The notes beneath the pieces were generated by a model. The model made no database searches. It was not told the origin of the DNA and saw nothing but the letters and a program-made list of their open reading frames with translations. From Ostreococcus lucimarinus (lineage: Eukaryota), in the NCBI GenBank assembly GCA_000092065.1, contig CP000585.1: DNA of 64,000 nucleotides. One strand, written 5' to 3'. The number at the start of each line of letters is the position of its first letter. The first letter of the stretch is position 1. Below are positions 15,609 to 32,997 of this stretch, one piece after another. Made by a program: the position numbers and the translations under genes.

Positions 15609-16283
15609 CTACATCTCCAACAGTCCCCGCAACGCCTCCCTCGCATCGTCCTTTTCCGCATCCCGTTTCCTCTTCCTATCCTTCTTCTCTCGCTTCCTAT
15701 CCTTCGGCTTCGCCCTCGAGACCCCCCCGCCGGCGCCGAGCTTCTCCGCGCACCGCGCGCACGCGCGCACCTTCATCATCGCCTTCTTCCTCACCCCTCC
15801 CTCGTCGTACGCGAACACGCACTCGAACGACGCCAACCCATCGCTCGTCTCGCATCTCTTCTCGCCGCACGTGAACTGCCCCTTCCCCGCCCGCACCTCC
15901 GCCGCCGTTCGCCACCGCGCCCCCGTCTCGCCGTCTCGCGTCGTCGCGTCGAACACCGCGTACGCCTTGTACAGCTTTTCGTGATACCGTCTCGCCAGTC
16001 GCACCGCCCACGCGTCGCCGCGCCTTTCGTCCTCCTCGTCGTCTCTCACGAATCGGTGCTCGCGCGCCAGCGCGTCGCCGTCGCCGCGCGCGCGCCGCGC
16101 GTTCGCGCCGCAGAACCGCTCGTGCGCGTCGAGCAGCGCGGCGTGACGCGCGCGAGGGCTCAGCCGCGCGAAGTCGGCGCGATCGAGCGCGGCGCGCGCG
16201 ACGTCGTCGCCGCGCGCGCGCCGCATCGCGCGTCGCGGCGTGCGGGCGACCGACCGCGCGGGCGCCGTGCACGCATAAATCAT
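15609..16283 (-). CDS. FRA10AC1: FRA10AC1 homologue (fragile-site-associated nuclear protein family)
   Basis: KLYKAYAVFDATTRDGETGARWRTAAEVRAGKGQFTCGEKRCETSDGLASFECVFAYDEGGVRKKAMMKVRACARCAEKL matches the conserved FRA10AC1 core (EYAICDLS...RWRTEKEV..GKGQF.CGNKHC...L.SWEVNFGY.E...K..LVKLRLC..C..KL). A basic KDRKREKKDRKRKRD tail follows. The track start at 16283 lies inside the tandem duplication, so the true start may be the ATG at ~16226 (MRRARGDD...). Confidence 0.8.
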   Translation of the reverse strand: MIYACTAPARSVARTPRRAMRRARGDDVARAALDRADFARLSPRARHAALLDAHERFCGANARRARGDGDALAREHRFVRDDEEDERRGDAWAVRLARRYHEKLYKAYAVFDATTRDGETGARWRTAAEVRAGKGQFTCGEKRCETSDGLASFECVFAYDEGGVRKKAMMKVRACARCAEKLGAGGGVSRAKPKDRKREKKDRKRKRDAEKDDAREALRGLLEM

Positions 16284-16396
16284 CCATCACACATGGGCGA
16301 ACGGGTCGCAGAGTACGCGATCGAACGCGCGGGCGCCGTACACGCATAAATCATCACACATGGGCGAACGGGTCGCGGAGTACGCGATCGAACGCC
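16258..16396. repeat. tandem duplication, 2 x ~70 bp (GCGGGCGCCGTRCACGCATAAATCATC[CAT]CACACATGGGCGAACGGGTCGCRGAGTACGCGATCGAACGC)
   Basis: Copies at 16258..16328 and 16329..16396 differ by a 3-nt indel and 2 substitutions. The array sits between the divergent FRA10AC1 (minus) and SC5D (plus) genes. Each copy carries an ATG opening the same short reading frame (MIYACTAPARS). Confidence 0.9.
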
Positions 16397-16617
16397 CGCG
16401 GCGCGCGATAAAAATCGACCGCGCGACGTCACCCGTTTGACCGCGGCGCCGCACACGCCGGCGCGCCGCGCGACCGCGCGCGCACGAGCGCGCGGACGTC
16501 GAGCGCGACGTGAAGCGTCGCGTCGTCGCGGCGAGCGCGCGCGCGACGCGAGGAAGCGAACGCGACGCGACGCGAGGAAGCGAACGCGAAGACGCATTCG
16601 CGCGCGCGGCGCGCACG

Positions 16618-17514
16618 ATGAGCGAGGTGCCGATCGTCGTCGGCCTGCTGCACGGCTTCGACGGCACGGGACACTGGTTGAATCACGTGCTGATCGATCG
16701 GTACGTGCTCGGGGTGACGAAGGCGGGAGACGCGTACGATCCGTCGAGATATTCGATGGCGAGAAAGTTTACGGTCATGTGGGCCTTTTTGACGTTTTTC
16801 ACGTACGCGCTGTACTTTACGCTGTGCCCGTTGTCGTATTGGTGGAATTTTAAGCGGAAGAACGCGGAGGGGAAGAATAAGGCGAAATGGCTCGGTCGCG
16901 AGGGGAAGGATCAGGTGAAAAACGAGATCGTGCTCTCGGTGTGGTCCATCGCGGTGATGACGTTTATGATTGCGCCGTTCGAGCTGATGGTCGAGGCGGG
17001 ATGGACGAAGTTGTATTGGGACGTCGATAAGTACGGCATGACGTACTTTTGTCTCACGCCGTTGTTGTTTTTGGTGTTCAGCGACACGTGCATTTATTGG
17101 ATTCATCGCGGGTTGCATCATCGCGCGGTGTACGCGCCGATTCACAAGTTGCACCACAAGTACAAGGACACGACGCCGTTTAGCGCGTACGCGTTTCACC
17201 CGCTCGACGGCTGGTTACAAGGGTGCCCGTATCACTTGTTCATCTTCCTGTTCCCCATGCATCACATGACTTACTTTATTTCTCTCGCCATCGTTGGTTT
17301 GTGGACGATCAATATCCACGACCGCGTTTCGATGCGGTTTCCTTACGTCAACTGCGCGGCGCACCACACGATTCATCACACGGGGTTCAATTACAACTAC
17401 GGGCAGTACTTTACGTTTTGGGACAAAATCGGAGGGTCGTACAGGGACCCGCACTCATACCCGCCTTACGCGGACAAGAACCCGAACTTGACGACTAGCA
17501 AAAAAGCTGATTGA
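16618..17514 (+). CDS. SC5D: sterol C-5 desaturase (lathosterol oxidase, ERG3/SC5D/STE1; fatty-acid hydroxylase superfamily)
   Basis: Three His boxes in the canonical order and spacing: HRGLHH, HKLHHKY, HHTIHHTGFNYNYGQYFTFWDKIGGSY. The protein aligns closely with the ERG3/SC5D core (WIHR.LHH...HK.HH...PF...AFHP.DG..Q..PYH.F.F.FP.H). The track ORF starts at a GTG at 16510; the first ATG is at 16618 (MSEVPIVVGLL). Confidence 0.9.
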   Translation: MSEVPIVVGLLHGFDGTGHWLNHVLIDRYVLGVTKAGDAYDPSRYSMARKFTVMWAFLTFFTYALYFTLCPLSYWWNFKRKNAEGKNKAKWLGREGKDQVKNEIVLSVWSIAVMTFMIAPFELMVEAGWTKLYWDVDKYGMTYFCLTPLLFLVFSDTCIYWIHRGLHHRAVYAPIHKLHHKYKDTTPFSAYAFHPLDGWLQGCPYHLFIFLFPMHHMTYFISLAIVGLWTINIHDRVSMRFPYVNCAAHHTIHHTGFNYNYGQYFTFWDKIGGSYRDPHSYPPYADKNPNLTTSKKAD

Positions 17515-24709: not shown

Positions 24710-27316
24710 TTATTTCGCCGCCGTCCTCGCCGGACCGCTTGCGGGATTAAAGTTACGCTTGAGCGCGTCCCTGTTTCCGCCGAGGAACCGAATGAGGGAG
24801 AAAAGCTCGTCGCGCACGAGCCACGTTCGAACGGCACCACGATCGGCGACAAGACAGCCGATGTTGTGCGATGGGACTTCGAAGGGTGAGTCGAGACGAC
24901 TGAGCGTCGCGATGGTTCGCTCCTTGACAGGCGAGTGGCCGTACACGGTGCTGTGCTTGCCCCAACCAGTGACGACTTGAATCTCTTCAGGCAAGTCGCG
25001 AATGTCGATCGGCATTTCGGACTTATTCTTCAACCCTGATACGAGCGCACGCGTTCCTTTGCCCGCGGCTCGAACGTCGAGCGGTGCCAAAGCGCGTTGA
25101 CGCATTCGGCGCAACCACCAACGTAAGACGCACTGCGCGGTGCCGGCGGAACGAATACGGTGCAGGTCTAAAACACCGAGATCGTCCTCGCATTGGAAGT
25201 GCCCAGCCGCTTGAGCTTGTTCGAGCCACGTCGTTGCGCGATCCCATTGACCCATCTCCTCGCAAACATCGATGAGCGCGTCAAACGTGAGCGCGTTTGG
25301 CACGATCCCTTCACTCGTCATTTGCGTCATCGCCTCGCCCGCCTTTTGCCACTCTTTACGAGCCTCATACGAAATCAATAGCGAGTTGTACGTGTGCACG
25401 GTGCGCGTGACGTCGCTCGTCAGCATGTATTTGAATGTGTCCTCCACCTCGGCGTACTCGTTGTTAACGTGAAGCACTCGGAGCAGGGCGTCGGAAACGA
25501 ACCCTCGCCATCCTGGAACTTCTTCGAGCTCGCGATCGTCGGCGAGCGCGCGTATAAGAACCGGGAGGTTCCCGACTGGACTATCGCTCACGTCGCACGT
25601 GCGTTCGAATTCGGGCAAATCGATGCCCTCCAATTCGGCTCGCTTGATTTCCTCGCGAAGCCTTTCCTCGCGACACGCCTGAAGCTTTTCAATACCGCAC
25701 AAGCAATCGAGTGTGATGGTGTCCGGCGCGAATCCCGAAAGAAGAAGTTCTTTATATATTTTCGTCGCGCGCACCCAGTCACGCTCTGCGCTCGCCTCCA
25801 TCAGGAGCGTGTTGTACGTGACGAGAGTCGATCGCACGCCCTCCGTCTCCATCACTCGTAAAACCCGTTGCGTGCCTTCAAGATTACCCGCCTTGACACA
25901 CGCCCCGAGCGCGCTGTTGAATATCACGGCCGTCGCGTGCAAACGCGGGGCAATGATGACTTGATGCAGGAGCTCGAGAGCCCGATCGATGTTGCCGCTA
26001 TTGCCGTGCGCGGTGATTAACACGCTGTACGTGGTTTCGTTCGGCATGACCCCCGCGCGCTGCATGGATTGGCTCATATTTTCCATGTCACGAATGCGTC
26101 GCTGCCTTCCGAGCGATTGCAACATACCGTTGTATGTCGTCACGTTTCGCCTGACACCTTCCGTTTGCATGCGCTCAAACACGGCGGCGGCGTCCTTGTA
26201 ACGGCCCGAGTTCACCGCGGCAGAGAGCAATGCGTTGTACACACCCGTGTCCAATTGCACGTGCGAGCTCGCAAACAAGCTTTCGAATAACTCGCTCGCC
26301 TTTTCGAATTGTCCGCCCTTGCCGTACGCGCTGATGAGGGACGTGTACACGCGCACGCTCGGGTGCCACGTGGGCCCGCGACCTCTGAAGTCGCGCTTCA
26401 TCTCCTCAAACGTTTGTTCGGCGAGCTTCCACTCAATCGCACGCGCGTACGCCGCGATCACCTCGTGATACGTCTTGGCATCCGGACCCGGGCCGTGCTC
26501 TCGCATCTCGCGCAGCAATCTCGTCGCGTCCGCGCTCGCCGGCGGACGCGAGCGCTTGCACGCTCGCAGCGTCATGTTGTAAAACGCCAGCGGCACCGCC
26601 ACGCCGTTTCGCTCGCCCGCCTTCTTCATCCGCTGCAGCGCCGAAATCGCCTCAGGCGCGTCTCCGGTATCCGCCGCGCGCAGCATCACCGCCCCATCCA
26701 CCGCCCACATCGCGTCGTTCGCGTCCCACGCCGCGCTCGTCGACTTCTCGTCGTCGTCCGACCGCAGCGCTCGCTCGAGCGCGCCGTACGACGACGACAA
26801 CCCACCGTTTCGCCGCCCACTCCCGTTTCCACCCGTCGCGCGTCGCCACCCTCGTCGACCACCGTTCGCCGCGCCATCGAACCCGCTCCCGTCGCCCGCC
26901 GCGTCGAAATCCTCGTCGCCGCTTCGCCGCGTCGTCACCTCACCGCGCGGACCCTCGACGATTTCCAGCCCCTCCCGCGCCCAACCCCGTCGCGTCGCGA
27001 CTCCCGCGTACGCCCGCGTCCCGTTCGACGCCGCCGCGCTCGACCCGTCGTCGTCGTCGTCCTCGTCGCGCGTCGTCTCGTACGACGCGAGCGCGTCGCC
27101 CTCGTCGTCGTCGTCGCGACTCGTCGCTCTGCGGTTTTTACGGCTCGCGCGCGCCGTCACGCGCGCGCCGCGCGTCGCCATCGCCGCGCGCATCGCGCGT
27201 CGCTCGAGCGCGTCCGCGTCGCTCGCGCGTCGCGCCGTCGTCGTCGACGCGCGCGGTCGTCGTCGCGCGGTCGTGCTTCCCACCGGCGCCGTCGCGACGC
27301 CGCCGCGCGTCGCCAT
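24710..27316 (-). CDS. pentatricopeptide-repeat protein with C-terminal Smr domain (PPR-SMR family: GUN1/pTAC2/SVR7/SOT1-like), plastid presequence
   Basis: At least 12 tandem 35-aa PPR motifs (VYTSLISAYGKGGQFEKASELFESL; TYNGMLQSLGRQRRIRDMENMSQSMQRAGVMPNETTYSVLITAHGNSG; and others). The C-terminal Smr domain is LDLHRIRSAGTAQCVLRWWLRRM...VVTGWGKHS. The N-terminus is Ala/Arg-rich with acidic low-complexity stretches. Confidence 0.85.
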   Translation of the reverse strand: MATRGGVATAPVGSTTARRRPRASTTTARRASDADALERRAMRAAMATRGARVTARASRKNRRATSRDDDDEGDALASYETTRDEDDDDDGSSAAASNGTRAYAGVATRRGWAREGLEIVEGPRGEVTTRRSGDEDFDAAGDGSGFDGAANGGRRGWRRATGGNGSGRRNGGLSSSYGALERALRSDDDEKSTSAAWDANDAMWAVDGAVMLRAADTGDAPEAISALQRMKKAGERNGVAVPLAFYNMTLRACKRSRPPASADATRLLREMREHGPGPDAKTYHEVIAAYARAIEWKLAEQTFEEMKRDFRGRGPTWHPSVRVYTSLISAYGKGGQFEKASELFESLFASSHVQLDTGVYNALLSAAVNSGRYKDAAAVFERMQTEGVRRNVTTYNGMLQSLGRQRRIRDMENMSQSMQRAGVMPNETTYSVLITAHGNSGNIDRALELLHQVIIAPRLHATAVIFNSALGACVKAGNLEGTQRVLRVMETEGVRSTLVTYNTLLMEASAERDWVRATKIYKELLLSGFAPDTITLDCLCGIEKLQACREERLREEIKRAELEGIDLPEFERTCDVSDSPVGNLPVLIRALADDRELEEVPGWRGFVSDALLRVLHVNNEYAEVEDTFKYMLTSDVTRTVHTYNSLLISYEARKEWQKAGEAMTQMTSEGIVPNALTFDALIDVCEEMGQWDRATTWLEQAQAAGHFQCEDDLGVLDLHRIRSAGTAQCVLRWWLRRMRQRALAPLDVRAAGKGTRALVSGLKNKSEMPIDIRDLPEEIQVVTGWGKHSTVYGHSPVKERTIATLSRLDSPFEVPSHNIGCLVADRGAVRTWLVRDELFSLIRFLGGNRDALKRNFNPASGPARTAAK

Positions 27317-27491
27317 CGTCGCGTCGCCGCGCGTCGCGGTGCGTCGCGCGAGACTTCGTCGCGTCGCGCGCGCGTCGTCGCCGCGCTCGCGTCGCGTCGC
27401 GCGTCGCGCGCGCGCGTGTGACGCCGCGCCGTCGCCGCCGCCGGGCCGACCGCCTTATCTGCGACCGCGTGTGCGCAAACAGTGAGGACGT

Positions 27492-27648
27492 ACGTATACG
27501 TACCCCAGATGGGTAAAGTGCGCGCTGAATACGTATACGTACCCCAGATGGGTAAAGTGCGCGCTGAATACGTATACGTACCCCAGATGGGTAAAGTGCG
27601 CGCTGAATACGTATACGTACCCCAGATGGGTAAAGTGCGCGCTTGAAT
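27492..27648. repeat. tandem array, 4 x 39 bp (ACGTATACGTACCCCAGATGGGTAAAGTGCGCGCTGAAT), in a bidirectional promoter
   Basis: Four contiguous, essentially identical units (27492, 27531, 27570, 27609). The fourth has a 1-nt insertion. Each unit begins with the perfect 10-bp palindrome ACGTATACGT (ACGT core). It lies between the divergent starts of the PPR-SMR gene (27316, minus) and the lumenal-protein gene (27672, plus). Confidence 0.95.
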
Positions 27649-27671
27649 ACGAGCGGCGCACCGCGACGCGC

Positions 27672-28232
27672 ATGCGCGCGACGCCGCGCGCGCGCGCGCG
27701 CGTCGCGACGCCGCGACGTCGGCGACGACCGCGCGCGGTGACGCCGATCGCGTCGGCGTCGTCGGACGCGCGGCGCGCGACGCGACGCGTCGCGCTGACG
27801 ACGACGGCGATCGCGCTCGCGGCGTTCGGCGACGCGCGCGACGCGCGCGCGCGGCCGCTCGCGGTCGTCGAGGCGCGCGACGCGGTGGCGCGCGACGGCG
27901 GACGGTTTACGTTTGAGATCGAGCTTCCGAGGGGGTATCACTTCACGGAGGGCGCGAACTCGAGGTACGAGACGACGGCGGCGGCGAGCGGGACGAGGGG
28001 CGCGCTGGAGGGCGACGGCGGAGCGAAGAGGACGGTGGTCGTGCGCGCGGCGGAGGGGGTGAACGAGGCGCGCGTGGATTGCGTGGTGTATTTTTGTCGA
28101 ACGGATGACGTGTGCCTGATGCAGCGCGTGCGGTTCGAGGTGCCGGTGGCGACGGGGGGGGCGAGCGAGACGACGGCGGAGTACGTCGTCGCGGCGGAGG
28201 CGAACGACGCGGCGGTGCCGAGTTTTGATTGA
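27672..28232 (+). CDS. hypothetical thylakoid-lumen protein (transit peptide plus twin-arginine signal)
   Basis: ATG at 27672. An Arg/Ala-rich presequence is followed by ATRRVALTTTAIALAAFGDARDARA (RR, hydrophobic core, AxA). The mature ~110-aa domain (FTFEIELPRGYHFTEGANSRYE...VDCVVYFCRTDDVCLMQRVRFEVPV) has no recognised family. Confidence 0.6.
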   Translation: MRATPRARARVATPRRRRRPRAVTPIASASSDARRATRRVALTTTAIALAAFGDARDARARPLAVVEARDAVARDGGRFTFEIELPRGYHFTEGANSRYETTAAASGTRGALEGDGGAKRTVVVRAAEGVNEARVDCVVYFCRTDDVCLMQRVRFEVPVATGGASETTAEYVVAAEANDAAVPSFD

Positions 28233-28299
28233 ATCGCTGCTCTCGTGTTGTATTGTTCGTACATGTGTTAGGTGCGTGATTCGCGCGCGTCGCGTTCGC

Positions 28300-31200
28300 C
28301 TACTTCTTGGCTTTGGCGAGCTGAACGCCTTCCATTTCGTCTTCGACGTCTGAAAAAAGCTCGCGTAAATTCTCGAGAGTCTCCTCGTCGGCGTCCCACA
28401 TTCCGCGACCGGCGGCTTCGAGCATGCGCTTGACGACGTTCCTGAACGCCTGCGGGTTCGATTTTCTCAGCTTGTCACGCATCTCTTCGTCTTCGACGTA
28501 GGTTTCGTGCGCGCCGTCGTACACCCAGTTCTCGGCGAACCCGCTCGTGGCGCCCCAGCCCACGAGCGCGGTCATGCGTTGGGAAATTTCGTACGCACCG
28601 CCCGATCCTTGGTCCGCCATCGCGGTCGCCCATCGCGGGTTGAGTAGTTTCGTGCGGTACTCCATGCGAAGCGTCTCGTCGAGATCTTTCGGGGTGACGT
28701 CTTTACCGAAAGTCTCGACGATGGAGCACGCGACGTCGGGATTTTTCACGCCCGCGTCTTCCTTCGCGGCCTTGGCTGCGGCGACGAGCGCGCCCGTGTT
28801 GGCGTAGTACTCTTGGATGTCGGTCAGACCGTACTCTACAGAATCGATTTCCTGAACCACGCGCTCGGTGGTGCGTAAGAGCGATTGTAAAACTTCTGGT
28901 CGCGCGGTGCCGCGTTCGTCGCCTTTGCCGTACGAGTACGCGTTTCTCGACGCCCACGTATCTCCAAGCTCGCGAGAGTCCTCCCATCCACTCGTTCCGA
29001 CGCGTTCGTTCACCATGGAACCGTAGTCTCCGGGAGGGTTGCTGAACAAGCGTGCGGTGGTGTTCTCGATCCCCTCGCTTTGCATCTCTCTCGAGTGTTT
29101 GCGAATGAAGTTCATCTCAATCGGCTCGTCCGCCTCAGCCGCTCGAACGAAGAGGTCATCCAACAAACCAACGACGCTTGCAAAGCTGTCCCGGAAAATG
29201 CCAGACATGTTACACAAAACATCGACGCGCGGACGCCCATTCATCTCGCTGAGAGGAATCAGTTCGTATCGCACGACGCGACCGGTGCCTTCTTTCACCG
29301 CTCGAGCGCCGACGAGTTGCAAAACTATGCCGACGCTCTCTCCTTTCGTTTTGATCGCGTCGAGTCCCCACAAATTTACGCTGACTGATTCTGGATACGC
29401 ACCGTCGTTTGCGTCTTGATGTTGTTTCAGAATGGCATCCGCCACTGCGGCGCCGCGCGTGGCGGCGGCGGCCGATGGCATGCGGTACGGATCGAGTGCG
29501 TGAATGTTCCTTCCGGTTGGAAGGACTCCTTTACCGTCGCGCAACAAATCACCACCCACTGCCGGAGGCACCCATTCGCCGTCCAGGGCTCGATGCATAC
29601 CCGTGATCTCTTCTGTGTTCATCGAGAGCAGATCACGAATCTCGATCGCTTCCGTGACCTTGTCGCTGACAGTCGCCGTAGCGCCTCCGCTTTGCAGCGC
29701 GTCTTGCGCGCTGACGGGCACGGATAGGTTGAACGTTTGCTCGAGCCTAGCTTTGACCGCGTCCAGTGATTCGTTTGGATCAGCCTTGACAATTTCATCG
29801 ATCAGGCCCGCTTCGATATCACCGTCAAAGTACGCGCTAAGATACTGTGTCATTGACTCGCGCGTCGGCGCGGTGCCGAGCGAATGCAAGCCTTCGCTGA
29901 AGAGTCGATTTTCCAGAACGCCAAGGTACGTGTAGAGCTCGCTGGCATACGCATCGAAGTCTTTCTGAGAGAGAGACTCCGCCATTTCCGGCGTCATGCG
30001 AACATGCTCGCTCGTTTGTGCGTCGACGTAAGGGCAGTCGCTGTCTAATCCAGCCGCAGTCACCATGTCAAAGATGGACGTGCGCAAAGCGCTGTTCTCG
30101 TCGGGATTTTCCCTATACTCGTTCAAAATTTCACGCAACTGCGCGGTTTGCTTGTACAAGCCGGCGCGTCCGTACGGTGGCACGTTGTGCGAAATGATGA
30201 CTCCGTATCCGCGTCGCTTCGCGATGATGCTTTCACTAGGATTGTTCGCGGCGTATACGTACACATTCGGCATCGCGCCCAACAACTGTTCGCTCCACGA
30301 CAAGCTCGTGTTCCCGAGCGGCGAACCCGGGAGCCACTCGACGGTACCATGCATGCCGAAGTGAACGATCGCGTTCGCCTTGAACTCGTTTTGAAGCCAT
30401 TTGTAATACGCGGCGTACTGCGGATGCGGCGTGAGATCGCGCTCAAACAACAATCGCATCGGATCGCCCTCCACGCCGAGCGCAGGTTGAATGCCGATGA
30501 AGACGTTACCAAGCTGGAGACCAGTGACGACGCTCCCTTTGCCTGGCGCAGTCGCAAGTCCGATGTAATTTTCGAGCGGTCCCCACGCCGCTTCCATCTT
30601 TTTTACGAGTACGTCGGGTTCTGGTAAGTATGGAATCGGTCCCCACTCCGTCGGTCCCCACTCCTTTGGAAACGCGAGCCACTTCTTCAGCTGCGCCGGC
30701 GTCACGTTCGCACCCGCAACCGTGACTCCAGGGAGCTCACCGCCTTTCGCCATGTCGCTCACCGCGTTCACCGCTCCATCGTAACCAGCCATGATTGTGG
30801 CGTTTTCTTCCAACGTACGCAAAGCTTTGACGATGGACTCGCCCGTGGGGAGCTCGTCGGCGTCGCCGAGGTAGTACCCTTCAGCTTTGAGCGACTGTAA
30901 CATGTTTTCTAAAGAATTCGGCACGTTTAGTAACGCCGCCGTACCCGTGGCACCGACGCCCGGGGGGAATCCGTACATCATCACTGCGATTTTGCGCTCA
31001 TCTCGCTTGGTTTTGCGTAAACTGTGCCATTGCTTCAGACGATTTGAAAGCGCAAAGACGCGCTCGCGAGTGAGGTAAATGTTGTCGCCGCACAACCCAC
31101 CGAGCGCGACCGTGTCGATCGCGCCGTCAAGTTCTGGCAACGCGTAGAGAATTGTACTTTGTAAACCACCAACGCCACTTCGAACCCAGGAAGCGATGTC

Positions 31201-32997
31201 TTGAATCAACAACGGCGCGGCGACGAAGTACGGAATGTTCTTCGCTCCCAAGATACCTTGCGCAACTTCAGCCTGCCGACCCGCCTCCATACTTCCCGCG
31301 GGGCCGCCGACGAGAGGAAATCCGACCGTGCTAACCACGGCGTCTACAACTGTGGCGTCTTGCTTCAAAGAATCGACCTCTACGACGCCTTCAGCGCGTC
31401 TTTGTTGTTCGTATTCAGACGTCAGCATGTCGCGCACAATGGTGTGCGCCTCGACGCCGTTGATGAAAATTGGAATCGGCAGAACGCCGGAGTCTTCGAA
31501 TGATTCGACTAAATCCGCAAGATATGGCTGCTTCGTGATGACGTGCTTACGGTAAAGAAGCATAGCCACGCGCGGGGCACCCGCTGGAACTTTGTGGGAA
31601 CGCGTCCGAGCGTGCCAATCAAGGTAGGACGCGATCGTCTCGAAGTACGGCATCTTTTCTCGCTCGCGTTGCGGATGATAGAGACCCAGCGCCGGAGTTT
31701 CCACGGGAGGTTTTGGCGCGCCAGAGACACCGAAGATCCGTTCTATGAACGATTTCGGCTTGTTCTCGTCACCGGGCGGGGCCAAGTACTCTGACGCAAG
31801 ATACGCGAACGCTTCTTCAACGTTTTCTTTGCCGCCTTGGTTCCAGTACGCGTACACCGTGAGCCAATTCTTCAGATCACGCGCCTTATCCCCGGGAACA
31901 AACTTCAAAAGTTGTGGGCCGATCTTCAAGAACGACAAGTAGCCGACGAGCTTGTCCTCCTCCTTGCCGCTTCCAAACTTGGCGAGCACGGCTTTCACTG
32001 CCGGCGGCGGTCCCGCCTTTTGCCCGCTCGGTGCCGCCATTTGGAAAGAACCGACGGATGTGCAGCTCATGAGCTCGAGGGCGGACTCGAACACAAATCG
32101 CAAGGGAATATCTGCGATGCGCGCGCGCAACCACTCGACTTGATCGTAATCGAACAACAACGACCCGAAGAAGACATCCGCGCCGTCGAGCGCGGCTTCC
32201 AACTCCTCTCGTCTTCCCTCGATATCGCGATCGCTAAACACTAACAAATCAACGTGAGGGTATCGTTTCTTCAAATCTCGCGCCGACGCCTTGTACAGCG
32301 CGACGTTAAAACTCTCGAATCCACTCAACAAAACAATCTTCCGCGCGCCCTCGCGCGTCTCGGGAACCGCGGACGCCTTCATCGGCGGCGCGCTCAAAAA
32401 CCCCACCCCACCGCGTTTCGCCACCGCCAGCGCGTTCTCCGCCTCCGCCAACGCATCTCGAGCTCGATCTCGCCGCGCTTTTATCGAGTGCACGCTCTTC
32501 TGAAACGTCAACCACTTCGCCCCGTCCTTCTCCGCCTCCCGCAGCAGCGCCGTCGCCGCCTTCGGTTCGCGCGCGTTCAGCTCTCGAAATCCAATCTCCG
32601 TGCCCGCCTCGTCCCCGAGCGCGCGCTCCTCGCCGTCCTCGCCGTCCACTCGCGGCTTCATCGTTCCGAACGCGTCGCGATACGCGCCATCGAGCGCGCT
32701 CGTGAGCGCGTCGACGTCGCGCGTCAGCGCCTCCACTCTGGCTCGGCGCTCGGCGACGTCATCGTCCTCTCGCCGCGCGCCCTCCGCCGCCGCCGTCGCG
32801 AGGACGTCGTCGGCGTAGCGCTCGGCGGCGCTCGACAGGGGCTTCGCGTCGACGCCCTCGCCGCGGGCGACGCGCGCGGCGGCCGTCGCGCGACGCGCGC
32901 GCGACGTCGACGACGCGCGGCGACCGAGTCGACCGCGCGACGCCGCGGACGCGCGCGGCGGCGCGGACGCGCGCGGCGCGAGGCGCGGACCGCGCAT
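28300..32997 (-). CDS. CHLH: magnesium chelatase subunit H (CHLH/GUN5; CobN/Mg-chelatase family) with unusually long N-terminal extension
   Basis: About 1330 aa align along the CobN/CHLH family. These include the N-terminal domain (KIVLLSGFESFNVALYK...VFFGSLLFDYDQVEWL), the central porphyrin-binding region and the conserved C-terminus (...NWVYDGAHETYVEDEEMRDKLRKSNPQAF). The ORF adds ~220 aa before the conserved start: an Arg/Ala/Ser-rich presequence and a predicted coiled-coil segment. Confidence 0.92.
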   Translation of the reverse strand: MRGPRLAPRASAPPRASAASRGRLGRRASSTSRARRATAAARVARGEGVDAKPLSSAAERYADDVLATAAAEGARREDDDVAERRARVEALTRDVDALTSALDGAYRDAFGTMKPRVDGEDGEERALGDEAGTEIGFRELNAREPKAATALLREAEKDGAKWLTFQKSVHSIKARRDRARDALAEAENALAVAKRGGVGFLSAPPMKASAVPETREGARKIVLLSGFESFNVALYKASARDLKKRYPHVDLLVFSDRDIEGRREELEAALDGADVFFGSLLFDYDQVEWLRARIADIPLRFVFESALELMSCTSVGSFQMAAPSGQKAGPPPAVKAVLAKFGSGKEEDKLVGYLSFLKIGPQLLKFVPGDKARDLKNWLTVYAYWNQGGKENVEEAFAYLASEYLAPPGDENKPKSFIERIFGVSGAPKPPVETPALGLYHPQREREKMPYFETIASYLDWHARTRSHKVPAGAPRVAMLLYRKHVITKQPYLADLVESFEDSGVLPIPIFINGVEAHTIVRDMLTSEYEQQRRAEGVVEVDSLKQDATVVDAVVSTVGFPLVGGPAGSMEAGRQAEVAQGILGAKNIPYFVAAPLLIQDIASWVRSGVGGLQSTILYALPELDGAIDTVALGGLCGDNIYLTRERVFALSNRLKQWHSLRKTKRDERKIAVMMYGFPPGVGATGTAALLNVPNSLENMLQSLKAEGYYLGDADELPTGESIVKALRTLEENATIMAGYDGAVNAVSDMAKGGELPGVTVAGANVTPAQLKKWLAFPKEWGPTEWGPIPYLPEPDVLVKKMEAAWGPLENYIGLATAPGKGSVVTGLQLGNVFIGIQPALGVEGDPMRLLFERDLTPHPQYAAYYKWLQNEFKANAIVHFGMHGTVEWLPGSPLGNTSLSWSEQLLGAMPNVYVYAANNPSESIIAKRRGYGVIISHNVPPYGRAGLYKQTAQLREILNEYRENPDENSALRTSIFDMVTAAGLDSDCPYVDAQTSEHVRMTPEMAESLSQKDFDAYASELYTYLGVLENRLFSEGLHSLGTAPTRESMTQYLSAYFDGDIEAGLIDEIVKADPNESLDAVKARLEQTFNLSVPVSAQDALQSGGATATVSDKVTEAIEIRDLLSMNTEEITGMHRALDGEWVPPAVGGDLLRDGKGVLPTGRNIHALDPYRMPSAAAATRGAAVADAILKQHQDANDGAYPESVSVNLWGLDAIKTKGESVGIVLQLVGARAVKEGTGRVVRYELIPLSEMNGRPRVDVLCNMSGIFRDSFASVVGLLDDLFVRAAEADEPIEMNFIRKHSREMQSEGIENTTARLFSNPPGDYGSMVNERVGTSGWEDSRELGDTWASRNAYSYGKGDERGTARPEVLQSLLRTTERVVQEIDSVEYGLTDIQEYYANTGALVAAAKAAKEDAGVKNPDVACSIVETFGKDVTPKDLDETLRMEYRTKLLNPRWATAMADQGSGGAYEISQRMTALVGWGATSGFAENWVYDGAHETYVEDEEMRDKLRKSNPQAFRNVVKRMLEAAGRGMWDADEETLENLRELFSDVEDEMEGVQLAKAKK

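What the first reader, a model, noticed from the sequence alone, without database searches (positions are those of the whole stretch)
27492..27648. Four perfect 39-bp tandem repeats with an ACGTATACGT palindrome between divergent plastid-protein genes
The array occupies nearly the entire 355-bp spacer between the PPR-SMR gene and a Tat-pathway lumenal protein gene. Each unit starts with a 10-bp perfect palindrome containing an ACGT core, the sequence class bound by bZIP/G-box factors. Four identical copies with no decay imply a recently expanded or actively homogenised cis-regulatory module. It could be a light/redox-responsive enhancer, a nucleosome-positioning array or the remnant of a mobile element.
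Basis: seen in the sequence. Interest (0 to 1): 0.6.

Follow-up and report, generated by a model that had tools for sequence, protein, structure and literature searches.

The report
Copy-number-variable promoter minisatellite in Ostreococcus
A 39-base stretch just upstream of a small chloroplast-lumen protein gene of the marine picoalga Ostreococcus lucimarinus is present four times in a row in this genome but once, twice or four or more times in wild relatives. It is an ordinary, recently expanded variable-number tandem repeat, not a dedicated regulatory array.

Summary
The array is real: window 27491-27651, period 39, three perfect units plus a fourth with a 1-nt T insertion. Its motifs occur nowhere else in the 64-kb window. 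It fills 44% of the 355-bp spacer, not nearly all of it.

The spacer separates a PPR gene (-) from a 186-aa gene (+). That protein is identical to O. lucimarinus CCE9901 XP_001417697.1. I identify it as a free-standing homologue of the SOQ1 C-terminal domain with a twin-arginine signal.

Metagenome and Logan contigs of the same species show the unit is normally single-copy:
- 15 complete alleles have one copy, 3 have two, and one has at least four heterogeneous copies.
- Several contigs break or carry N gaps inside the array.
- Every hit for the unit, in a JGI metagenome scan, is this same locus.

The unit is bounded by TACG microhomology. It is the most polymorphic part of the spacer (pi 0.058 against 0.004-0.012). 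The ACGTATACGT palindrome is its most variable portion and is imperfect (ACGTATGCGT) in many wild alleles.

A sister Ostreococcus carries an independent 67/76-bp duplication of the homologous segment.

Verdict: a locus-specific promoter-proximal minisatellite, recently expanded by slippage. Any regulatory effect is probably quantitative and is untested. Low interest.

The parts
27492..27530 (+). Repeat unit 1 (39 bp). In this unit the palindrome extends to the 14-nt GTACGTATACGTAC (27490-27503).
   Evidence: Exact match; sequence.
27531..27569 (+). Repeat unit 2, identical to unit 1.
27570..27608 (+). Repeat unit 3, identical to unit 1.
27609..27648 (+). Repeat unit 4 (40 bp). It has an extra T at 27644, which creates a TGA (27644-27646) in the frame opened by the unit ATGs.
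27649..27653 (+). Right-hand microhomology: TACGAG (27648-27653) follows the array. Each unit starts with TACG in the TRF phase, which is the signature of slippage or microhomology-mediated duplication. ATACGAG is also kept in the sister species and in L033.
   Evidence: read directly from the sequence.
27453..27488 (+). Conserved non-repeated promoter block CCTTATCTG...GCGCAAACAGTGAGGA just left of the array. It has the lowest diversity in the spacer (pi 0.004). GCGCA[A/T/C]AC[A/T]GTG is recognisable in more distant species.
27317..27671 (.). The 355-bp divergent spacer. Its left 135 bp is about 80% GC. The right part (27450-27660) is a 52-58% GC island made largely of the array.
27672..28232 (+). 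186-aa gene immediately downstream of the array. It is a free-standing SOQ1 C-terminal-domain homologue with a twin-arginine signal, identical to XP_001417697.1 of O. lucimarinus CCE9901.
24710..27316 (-). Divergent PPR-repeat gene (868 aa). SMR domain not confirmed.
27509..27646 (+). Potential upstream ORF, if the array is transcribed. Unit ATGs at 27509, 27548, 27587 and 27626 share one stop-free frame that ends at the TGA at 27644-27646. The frame relation to the main ATG is not conserved among alleles.

Best explanation
The array is a locus-specific, copy-number-variable minisatellite (VNTR). It lies in the low-GC core of the divergent promoter region between a PPR gene and a SOQ1-CTD-like lumenal protein gene of Ostreococcus lucimarinus.

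Origin. The 39-bp unit is an ordinary single-copy stretch of this spacer in most wild genomes. It is bounded by a TACG microhomology: the unit starts TACGTAT, and the DNA after it reads TACGAG. Replication slippage or unequal exchange between these sites made a tandem duplicate (inferred). Once two copies exist, out-of-register pairing changes the number up and down. Alleles with 1, 2 and at least 4 copies are observed (shown). This genome carries a young four-copy expansion of the 'A-type' unit. No substitutions have accumulated since, and the only difference is a 1-nt T insertion at the 3' end, which also occurs in a single-copy wild allele (L007).

Consequences. The expansion lengthens the low-GC island from about 95 to about 210 bp. 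It moves the conserved upstream block (CCTTATCTG...GCGCAAACAGTGAGGA) 117 bp further from the + gene's start codon. It also quadruples the near-invariant core CCCAGATGGGT and the ACGT palindrome. The most likely functional outcome is a neutral or mildly quantitative change in expression of the downstream gene, as for promoter tandem repeats in other eukaryotes (inferred, untested). It is not a conserved, dedicated light/redox enhancer.
For: The array is real and far beyond chance.

Copy number in the same species, where the 186-aa protein is identical or at least 98% identical:
- One copy in 15 complete alleles (L004, L007, L009, L011, L012, L021-L030).
- Two copies in L013, L031 (an 837-kb contig) and L032.
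- At least four heterogeneous units in L005; at least two in L010.
- Contigs L005, L006, L008 and L010 end inside the array, and scaffolds L001-L003 have 100-N gaps there.

Single-copy alleles L022, L024 and L026 carry exactly the unit found in this window.

The unit is locus-specific. There is no other copy in the window. The only 3 hits in the JGI metagenome collection are the same locus, including a 178-kb contig from a well-covered sample. There is none in viral contigs.

Constraint is low. Pi is 0.058 in the unit and 0.048 in the unit-to-ATG junction. It is 0.012 in the left spacer, 0.004 in the conserved block and 0.005 in the downstream coding sequence.

The unit ATG's frame relative to the main ATG varies through four different indels, and the ATG itself is lost in some units, so the array is non-coding.

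No Rfam family reaches threshold; the best match is 22 bits against a gathering score of 73.

A second intergenic minisatellite (67 bp x 2.3, at 16246-16404) lies in the same 64 kb, so such duplications are not exceptional here. The array sits in the kind of low-GC island found upstream of most start codons in the window.
Against: Two stretches of the unit are almost invariant in 32 wild units: CGTAYCCCAGATGGGT and AAGYGCGCGC. Every unit also keeps at least one ACGT core. Part of the unit may therefore be a real binding site.

A sister Ostreococcus species has independently duplicated the homologous segment, with 76- and 67-bp units present in all 5 contigs. That could reflect selection for more copies rather than a fragile site.

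Short-read assemblies under-report long arrays, so allele frequencies are biased towards one copy. The contigs are also not independent individuals.

The transcription start site and expression levels are unknown, so neutrality is not demonstrated. A genome-wide search of the complete reference genome could not be run.
Confidence: 0.75

Rival explanations
1. The array is a selected multimer of a cis-regulatory element. Extra copies of the unit (ACGT palindrome and/or CCCAGATGGGT) recruit more transcription factor and raise or re-tune expression of the SOQ1-CTD-like photoprotection gene, or of both divergent genes. Copy number would be maintained as adaptive variation between light niches.
For: The unit core is invariant, and at least one ACGT is kept in all 32 units. 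The sister species has independently duplicated the homologous segment. The array lies 23 bp from the start codon in the low-GC promoter island. The downstream gene is related to a regulator of photoprotective quenching.
Against: The unit is the most polymorphic part of the spacer, and the palindrome half is its most variable portion. The ACGT is absent at the homologous site of the sister species. More distant Mamiellales with the same gene order have no array. The motif is not found at other promoters in the window. Single copy is the commonest resolved state.
Confidence: 0.17
2. The array is transcribed as part of the 5' leader of the 186-aa gene and acts through its upstream AUGs. In this genome that would be a 45-codon uORF ending 25 nt before the main AUG. 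In other alleles it would be an in-frame N-terminal extension of 15 or 28 residues.
For: Each unit carries an ATG in a stop-free frame. Many wild alleles are in frame with the main ATG, and gene callers produced 201- and 214-aa versions.
Against: The frame is not conserved. Seven alleles are out of frame through four different indels, some giving about 160-codon overlapping uORFs that would block translation if used. The ATG is lost in L006 and in the last unit of L005. The ATG is not conserved in the sister species. Orthologues in other species have short N-termini. The TSS is unknown.
Confidence: 0.06
3. The array is an assembly artefact, or a remnant of a dispersed mobile element or satellite.
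For: Perfect tandem copies can in principle be mis-assembled. Contigs of wild relatives break at this point.
Against: Independent assemblies show multi-copy alleles with distinguishable units (L005, L013, L031, L032). Assemblers tend to collapse repeats rather than create them. At 157 bp the array is shorter than a Sanger read. The unit is single-locus in the window and in the metagenome scan and is homologous to unique spacer DNA in relatives. There are no flanking inverted repeats or target-site duplications.
Confidence: 0.02

Closest known systems
Polymorphic promoter tandem repeats (promoter VNTRs or expression-modifying TRs) of yeast and human. Sources: Vinces et al. 2009, from my own knowledge; human promoter TR eQTLs, PMC4857002.
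   Same: Head-to-tail repeats close to a start codon. Copy number is polymorphic within the species, and mutability is high. The expected effect is a graded change in expression through altered spacing or number of sites.
   Different: No expression or chromatin data exist for this locus. The unit (39 bp) is longer than most yeast promoter repeats. The organism is a haploid picoalga with spacers of a few hundred bp that serve two divergent genes.
ACGT-containing elements of plant promoters bound by bZIP factors (G-box CACGTG, A-box TACGTA, C-box GACGTC).
   Same: Each unit in this genome has two ACGT cores inside a perfect palindrome.
   Different: The flanks are TACGTA (A-box type), not the G-box. 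Natural alleles break one or other core. The homologous site in the sister species has no ACGT. Binding was not tested.
Tandem repeats enriched in 5'-UTR and proximal upstream regions of plant genomes (PMC3887541).
   Same: The position is immediately upstream of a gene start.
   Different: That survey found no such enrichment in the two chlorophycean algae analysed, and it did not analyse Ostreococcus. This case is a single locus, not a genome-wide class.
Classical minisatellites generated by slippage or unequal exchange at microhomology.
   Same: The unit is 10-100 bp and is bounded by a 4-5-bp direct microhomology (TACG). Alleles differ in number and in internal unit variants.
   Different: The array is very short (no more than about 5 units seen). 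It is not GC-rich relative to its surroundings; it is the AT-richest part of the spacer.

Membership tests
Promoter-proximal VNTR / minisatellite | Head-to-tail repeats of a 10-100-bp unit | tested here: met
   Period 39, 4.1 copies, 99% matches; exact matches.
Promoter-proximal VNTR / minisatellite | Copy number polymorphic among individuals or populations of the species | tested here: met
   Alleles with 1, 2, 4 and at least 4 copies among contigs encoding the same or at least 98% identical protein.
Promoter-proximal VNTR / minisatellite | Lies in the promoter or 5' region of a gene | tested here: inconclusive
   The array lies between divergent start codons, 23 bp upstream of one ATG, in the low-GC island typical of upstream regions here. 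The TSS is not known, so promoter and 5'UTR cannot be told apart.
Promoter-proximal VNTR / minisatellite | Copy number alters expression | not testable with these tools
   Needs reporter assays or expression data from strains with different alleles.
G-box / ACGT-element bZIP binding module | ACGT core with G-box flanks (CACGTG) | tested here: not met
   The cores are TACGTA. This is the A-box type by the plant nomenclature (own knowledge).
G-box / ACGT-element bZIP binding module | Element conserved in orthologous promoters and alleles | tested here: not met
   The palindrome positions are the most variable in 32 units: ATGCGT, AAGT, GCGT and ATGTGT variants. The sister species has TTACGCGG at the homologous place. 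Caveat: every O. lucimarinus unit keeps at least one ACGT.
G-box / ACGT-element bZIP binding module | Bound by a bZIP factor | not testable with these tools
   Needs DAP-seq, ChIP or EMSA.
Dispersed satellite / mobile-element remnant | Many copies at unrelated genomic sites | tested here: not met
   There is no other copy in the 64-kb window with up to 3 mismatches. All 3 JGI metagenome hits are the same locus. There is none in viral contigs. The complete genome was not searchable.
Dispersed satellite / mobile-element remnant | Terminal inverted repeats or target-site duplication around the element | tested here: not met
   The flanks are unique spacer DNA that is collinear with single-copy alleles and the sister species. 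The palindromes are internal to each unit.
Coding repeat / conserved uORF | Reading frame and start codon conserved among alleles and species | tested here: not met
   The alleles are a mix of in-frame and out-of-frame. The ATG is lost in some units and there is a stop in this genome. The ATG is absent in sister unit 2.
Structured RNA gene | Match to a curated RNA family, or a conserved structure | tested here: not met
   There is no Rfam hit near a gathering score. The strong single-strand fold (z -4.9) is the trivial pairing of repeated palindromes.

The most novel reading that the evidence does not exclude
The spacer upstream of the free-standing SOQ1-CTD-like gene may be a recurrently duplicating 'tuning knob'. 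Two Ostreococcus species have independently multiplied the same promoter segment, and O. lucimarinus populations segregate 1 to at least 4 copies. Copy number would set the dose of a lumenal photoprotection regulator and would be selected differently across light niches. That would make it a eukaryotic-phytoplankton analogue of contingency loci, readable directly from metagenomes.
Probability: 0.1. Interest if true: 0.55.

Novelty: new member of a known kind. Interest (0 to 1): 0.25.

Why it matters
As it stands, this is an ordinary promoter minisatellite. Its practical value is as a strain-level VNTR marker for O. lucimarinus populations, and as a warning that short-read assemblies break at this point.

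It would matter more if copy number were shown to set expression of the adjacent gene. That gene encodes a stand-alone homologue of the SOQ1 C-terminal domain, which in plants belongs to the negative regulator of the sustained quenching component qH. Natural promoter length variation would then link directly to photoprotection in a globally abundant picoalga.

Tried and rejected
- Rfam scan of 26800-28400 at E<=1 gave only sub-threshold chance hits, so an RNA gene is rejected.
- Single-strand DNA folding gave z -4.9. This is explained by palindromes of different units pairing with each other and is not evidence of function.
- Viral contig scan for the unit core gave 0 hits.
- Searches of the window for CCCAGATGGGT, GCGCAAACAGTG and TACGTA found no enrichment outside the array. 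The 'marks a co-regulated gene set' idea is therefore not supported within 64 kb.
- k-mer sharing among the spacers of six species was dominated by GC-rich k-mers, and one spacer was mis-extracted. It is uninformative and was discarded. The eye-level recurrence of ATGGGY-like motifs in distant species is left as an untested lead.
- SMR domain in the PPR protein: Pfam at E<=10, a PDB phmmer search and NCBIfam all failed to find it.
- Literature searches for the protein accessions and for Ostreococcus TSS data gave nothing usable.
- The coding-repeat hypothesis is rejected on frame inconsistency.
- The complete reference genome could not be searched.

Full report
OBSERVATION

Tandem Repeats Finder reports 27491-27651, period 39, 4.1 copies, 99% matches, score 313. 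The 39-mer ACGTATACGTACCCCAGATGGGTAAAGTGCGCGCTGAAT matches exactly at 27492, 27531 and 27570. The fourth copy (27609-27648) has an extra T at 27644. None of 100 dinucleotide-preserving shuffles gave a match.

ACGTATACGT occurs four times, all in the array, against 0.01 expected. The palindrome is really 12 nt (TACGTATACGTA), and 14 nt in unit 1.

The array is 157 of the 355 bp between the divergent start codons at 27316 (-) and 27672 (+). That is 44% of the spacer, not nearly all of it. It forms a 52% GC island in flanks of about 80% GC.

CONTEXT AND ORGANISM

The left gene (24710-27316, -) is a PPR-repeat protein (Pfam PPR families, E down to 5e-50). An SMR domain could not be confirmed.

The right gene (27672-28232, +) encodes 186 aa with no Pfam hit. 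Its sequence is identical to XP_001417697.1 / A4RX54 of Ostreococcus lucimarinus CCE9901. A profile built from 17 homologues hits the C-terminal domain of Arabidopsis SOQ1 in the PDB (7DJM, 7DJJ; E 1e-20). The cysteine pair described for that nDsbD-like domain is invariant. The N-terminus has an RR motif followed by a hydrophobic stretch. 'Tat-type lumenal protein' is therefore a reasonable description.

CHLH (Mg-chelatase H) follows at 28300-32997 (-). The order PPR(-) / SOQ1-CTD-like(+) / CHLH(-) is kept in every related locus fetched.

POPULATION EVIDENCE

Exact-protein look-ups returned metagenome and Logan contigs of the same species. One JGI metagenome scan with the unit core returned three more. 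I extracted the segment between the conserved left anchor CGCCTTATCTG and the start codon from each.

- One unit: 15 complete alleles (L004, L007, L009, L011, L012, L021-L030).
- Two units: three alleles (L013; L031, on an 837-kb contig; L032).
- At least four units, and these differ from one another: L005.
- At least two units: L010.
- Contigs L005, L006, L008 and L010 end inside the array, and scaffolds L001-L003 have 100-N gaps there.
- L020 has two units, but its left flank is unrelated AT-rich DNA.

Among the ten contigs that encode exactly the window's protein, only three are resolved (one copy each) and seven break at the array. Long alleles are therefore probably commoner than the resolved count suggests.

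Single-copy alleles L022, L024 and L026 carry exactly the unit that is quadrupled in the window. Many others read ACGTATGCGT and GGGTCAAG (the 'C-type'). The perfect palindrome is thus an allele-specific state.

All three hits of the metagenome scan are this same locus, including one on a 178-kb contig. No viral contig has the core. The unit is therefore locus-specific as far as I could test.

CONSTRAINT

I aligned 16 gap-free alleles and measured nucleotide diversity per region.

| Region | pi |
|---|---|
| Repeat unit | 0.058 |
| Unit-to-ATG junction | 0.048 |
| PPR N-terminal coding region | 0.021 |
| Left spacer | 0.012 |
| Downstream coding region | 0.005 |
| Conserved block CCTTATCTG...GCGCAAACAGTGAGGA | 0.004 |

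Across 32 wild units (22 distinct), the variable positions cluster in the palindrome half and at the 3' end. CGTAYCCCAGATGGGT and AAGYGCGCGC are almost invariant. If any part of the unit is a binding site, it is the central CCCAGATGGGT rather than the ACGT palindrome. Every unit does retain at least one ACGT, however.

CODING OR uORF?

Each unit has an ATG that opens a stop-free frame. In the window the T insertion makes a TGA, giving a 45-codon potential uORF (27509-27646).

In wild alleles this ATG is either in frame with the main ATG or out of frame. The in-frame cases explain the 201- and 214-aa gene calls. The out-of-frame cases arise through four different indels, and in some units the ATG is lost altogether. 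The segment does not behave as coding sequence. Frequent out-of-frame alleles with about 160-codon overlapping ORFs suggest that the unit ATG is not normally used. The TSS therefore probably lies downstream of it. This is an inference.

COMPARATIVE EVIDENCE

A sister Ostreococcus (protein 81% identical) has two tandem units of 76 and 67 bp at the homologous place. These run from GCGCAAACA to AATACGAG and are present in all five contigs. They align with the O. lucimarinus unit plus the block to its left. This is an independent duplication with different boundaries, and it has no ACGT at the palindrome position.

More distant species with the same gene order have no such array.

Within this window there is a second intergenic tandem duplication (16246-16404, 67 bp x 2.3). 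Low-GC islands upstream of start codons are the rule here.

MECHANISM

The unit begins TACGTAT, and the DNA after the array reads TACGAG. This 4-5-bp direct microhomology, 39 bp apart, is the classical substrate for slippage-type tandem duplication. Subsequent misalignment explains the allelic series.

The identity of the window's units shows a very recent expansion of an A-type unit (inference). L005's heterogeneous units argue against general homogenisation.

The expansion has three effects:
- It lengthens the low-GC core.
- It shifts the conserved left block 117 bp away from the + gene.
- It multiplies the unit's motifs.

The effect on expression is unknown. By analogy with promoter tandem repeats elsewhere (PMC4857002; Vinces et al. 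2009, own knowledge), it would be quantitative.

COMPARISON AND NOVELTY

This is a new instance of a well-known kind, the promoter-proximal VNTR. It fails the tests for a G-box module, a dispersed element, a coding repeat and a structured RNA (see the membership table).

SCORES

Interest is 0.25. The most novel reading not excluded is a recurrently duplicating, selected expression knob for a photoprotection gene. I give it a probability of about 0.1, with interest 0.55 if true.

Noticed in passing
window 27672-28232 (+): The 186-aa 'predicted protein' is a free-standing homologue of the SOQ1 C-terminal (nDsbD-like) domain, with a twin-arginine signal and the conserved Cys pair (C142/C148). A library-wide profile search finds 225 relatives. 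They include short stand-alone proteins and long proteins that carry the domain at their C-terminus (for example a 1079-aa protein, residues 953-1073).
   Followed up: partly
window 24710-32997; loci L014-L019, L033-L039: The gene order PPR(-) / SOQ1-CTD-like(+) / CHLH(-) is conserved across all related Mamiellales-like contigs fetched, down to 46% protein identity. Possible functional linkage (CHLH is GUN5 in plants) was not explored.
   Followed up: no
window 27151-27403: An older 134-bp tandem duplication (1.9 copies, 81%) spans the 5' end of the PPR gene. It gives two ATGGCGACGCGCGG start contexts, at 27316 and 27181 on the minus strand. One wild allele (L009) lacks the second ATG.
   Followed up: partly
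window 16246-16404: A second intergenic tandem duplication (period 67, 2.3 copies, 89% matches). It lies in a divergent spacer upstream of a + gene starting near 16618.
   Followed up: partly
L014-L017, L019 (sister species spacer): There is an independent 76+67-bp tandem duplication of the homologous promoter segment. Unit 1 also has an extra 9-bp internal duplication around CCAGAC, so this spot looks like a recurrent slippage site.
   Followed up: partly
L020 positions ~1170-1500: This scaffold joins two repeat units to an unrelated AT-rich left flank in place of the PPR side of the spacer. It is either a chimeric assembly at the repeat or a structural variant.
   Followed up: no
L033, L034, L018 spacers: By eye, ATGGGY/ACGGGC-like motifs recur in the low-GC cores of the orthologous spacers of distant species (for example TCATGGGTCAC and ATATGGGTTAAG in L034). 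They resemble the invariant CAGATGGGT of the unit. No statistical support was obtained.
   Followed up: partly
window 27490-27503 and 27635-27642 (each unit): Each unit contains a 14-nt and an 8-nt perfectly alternating purine-pyrimidine tract (GTACGTATACGTAC and GTGCGCGC). These are potential Z-DNA or cruciform formers that might contribute to local instability.
   Followed up: no
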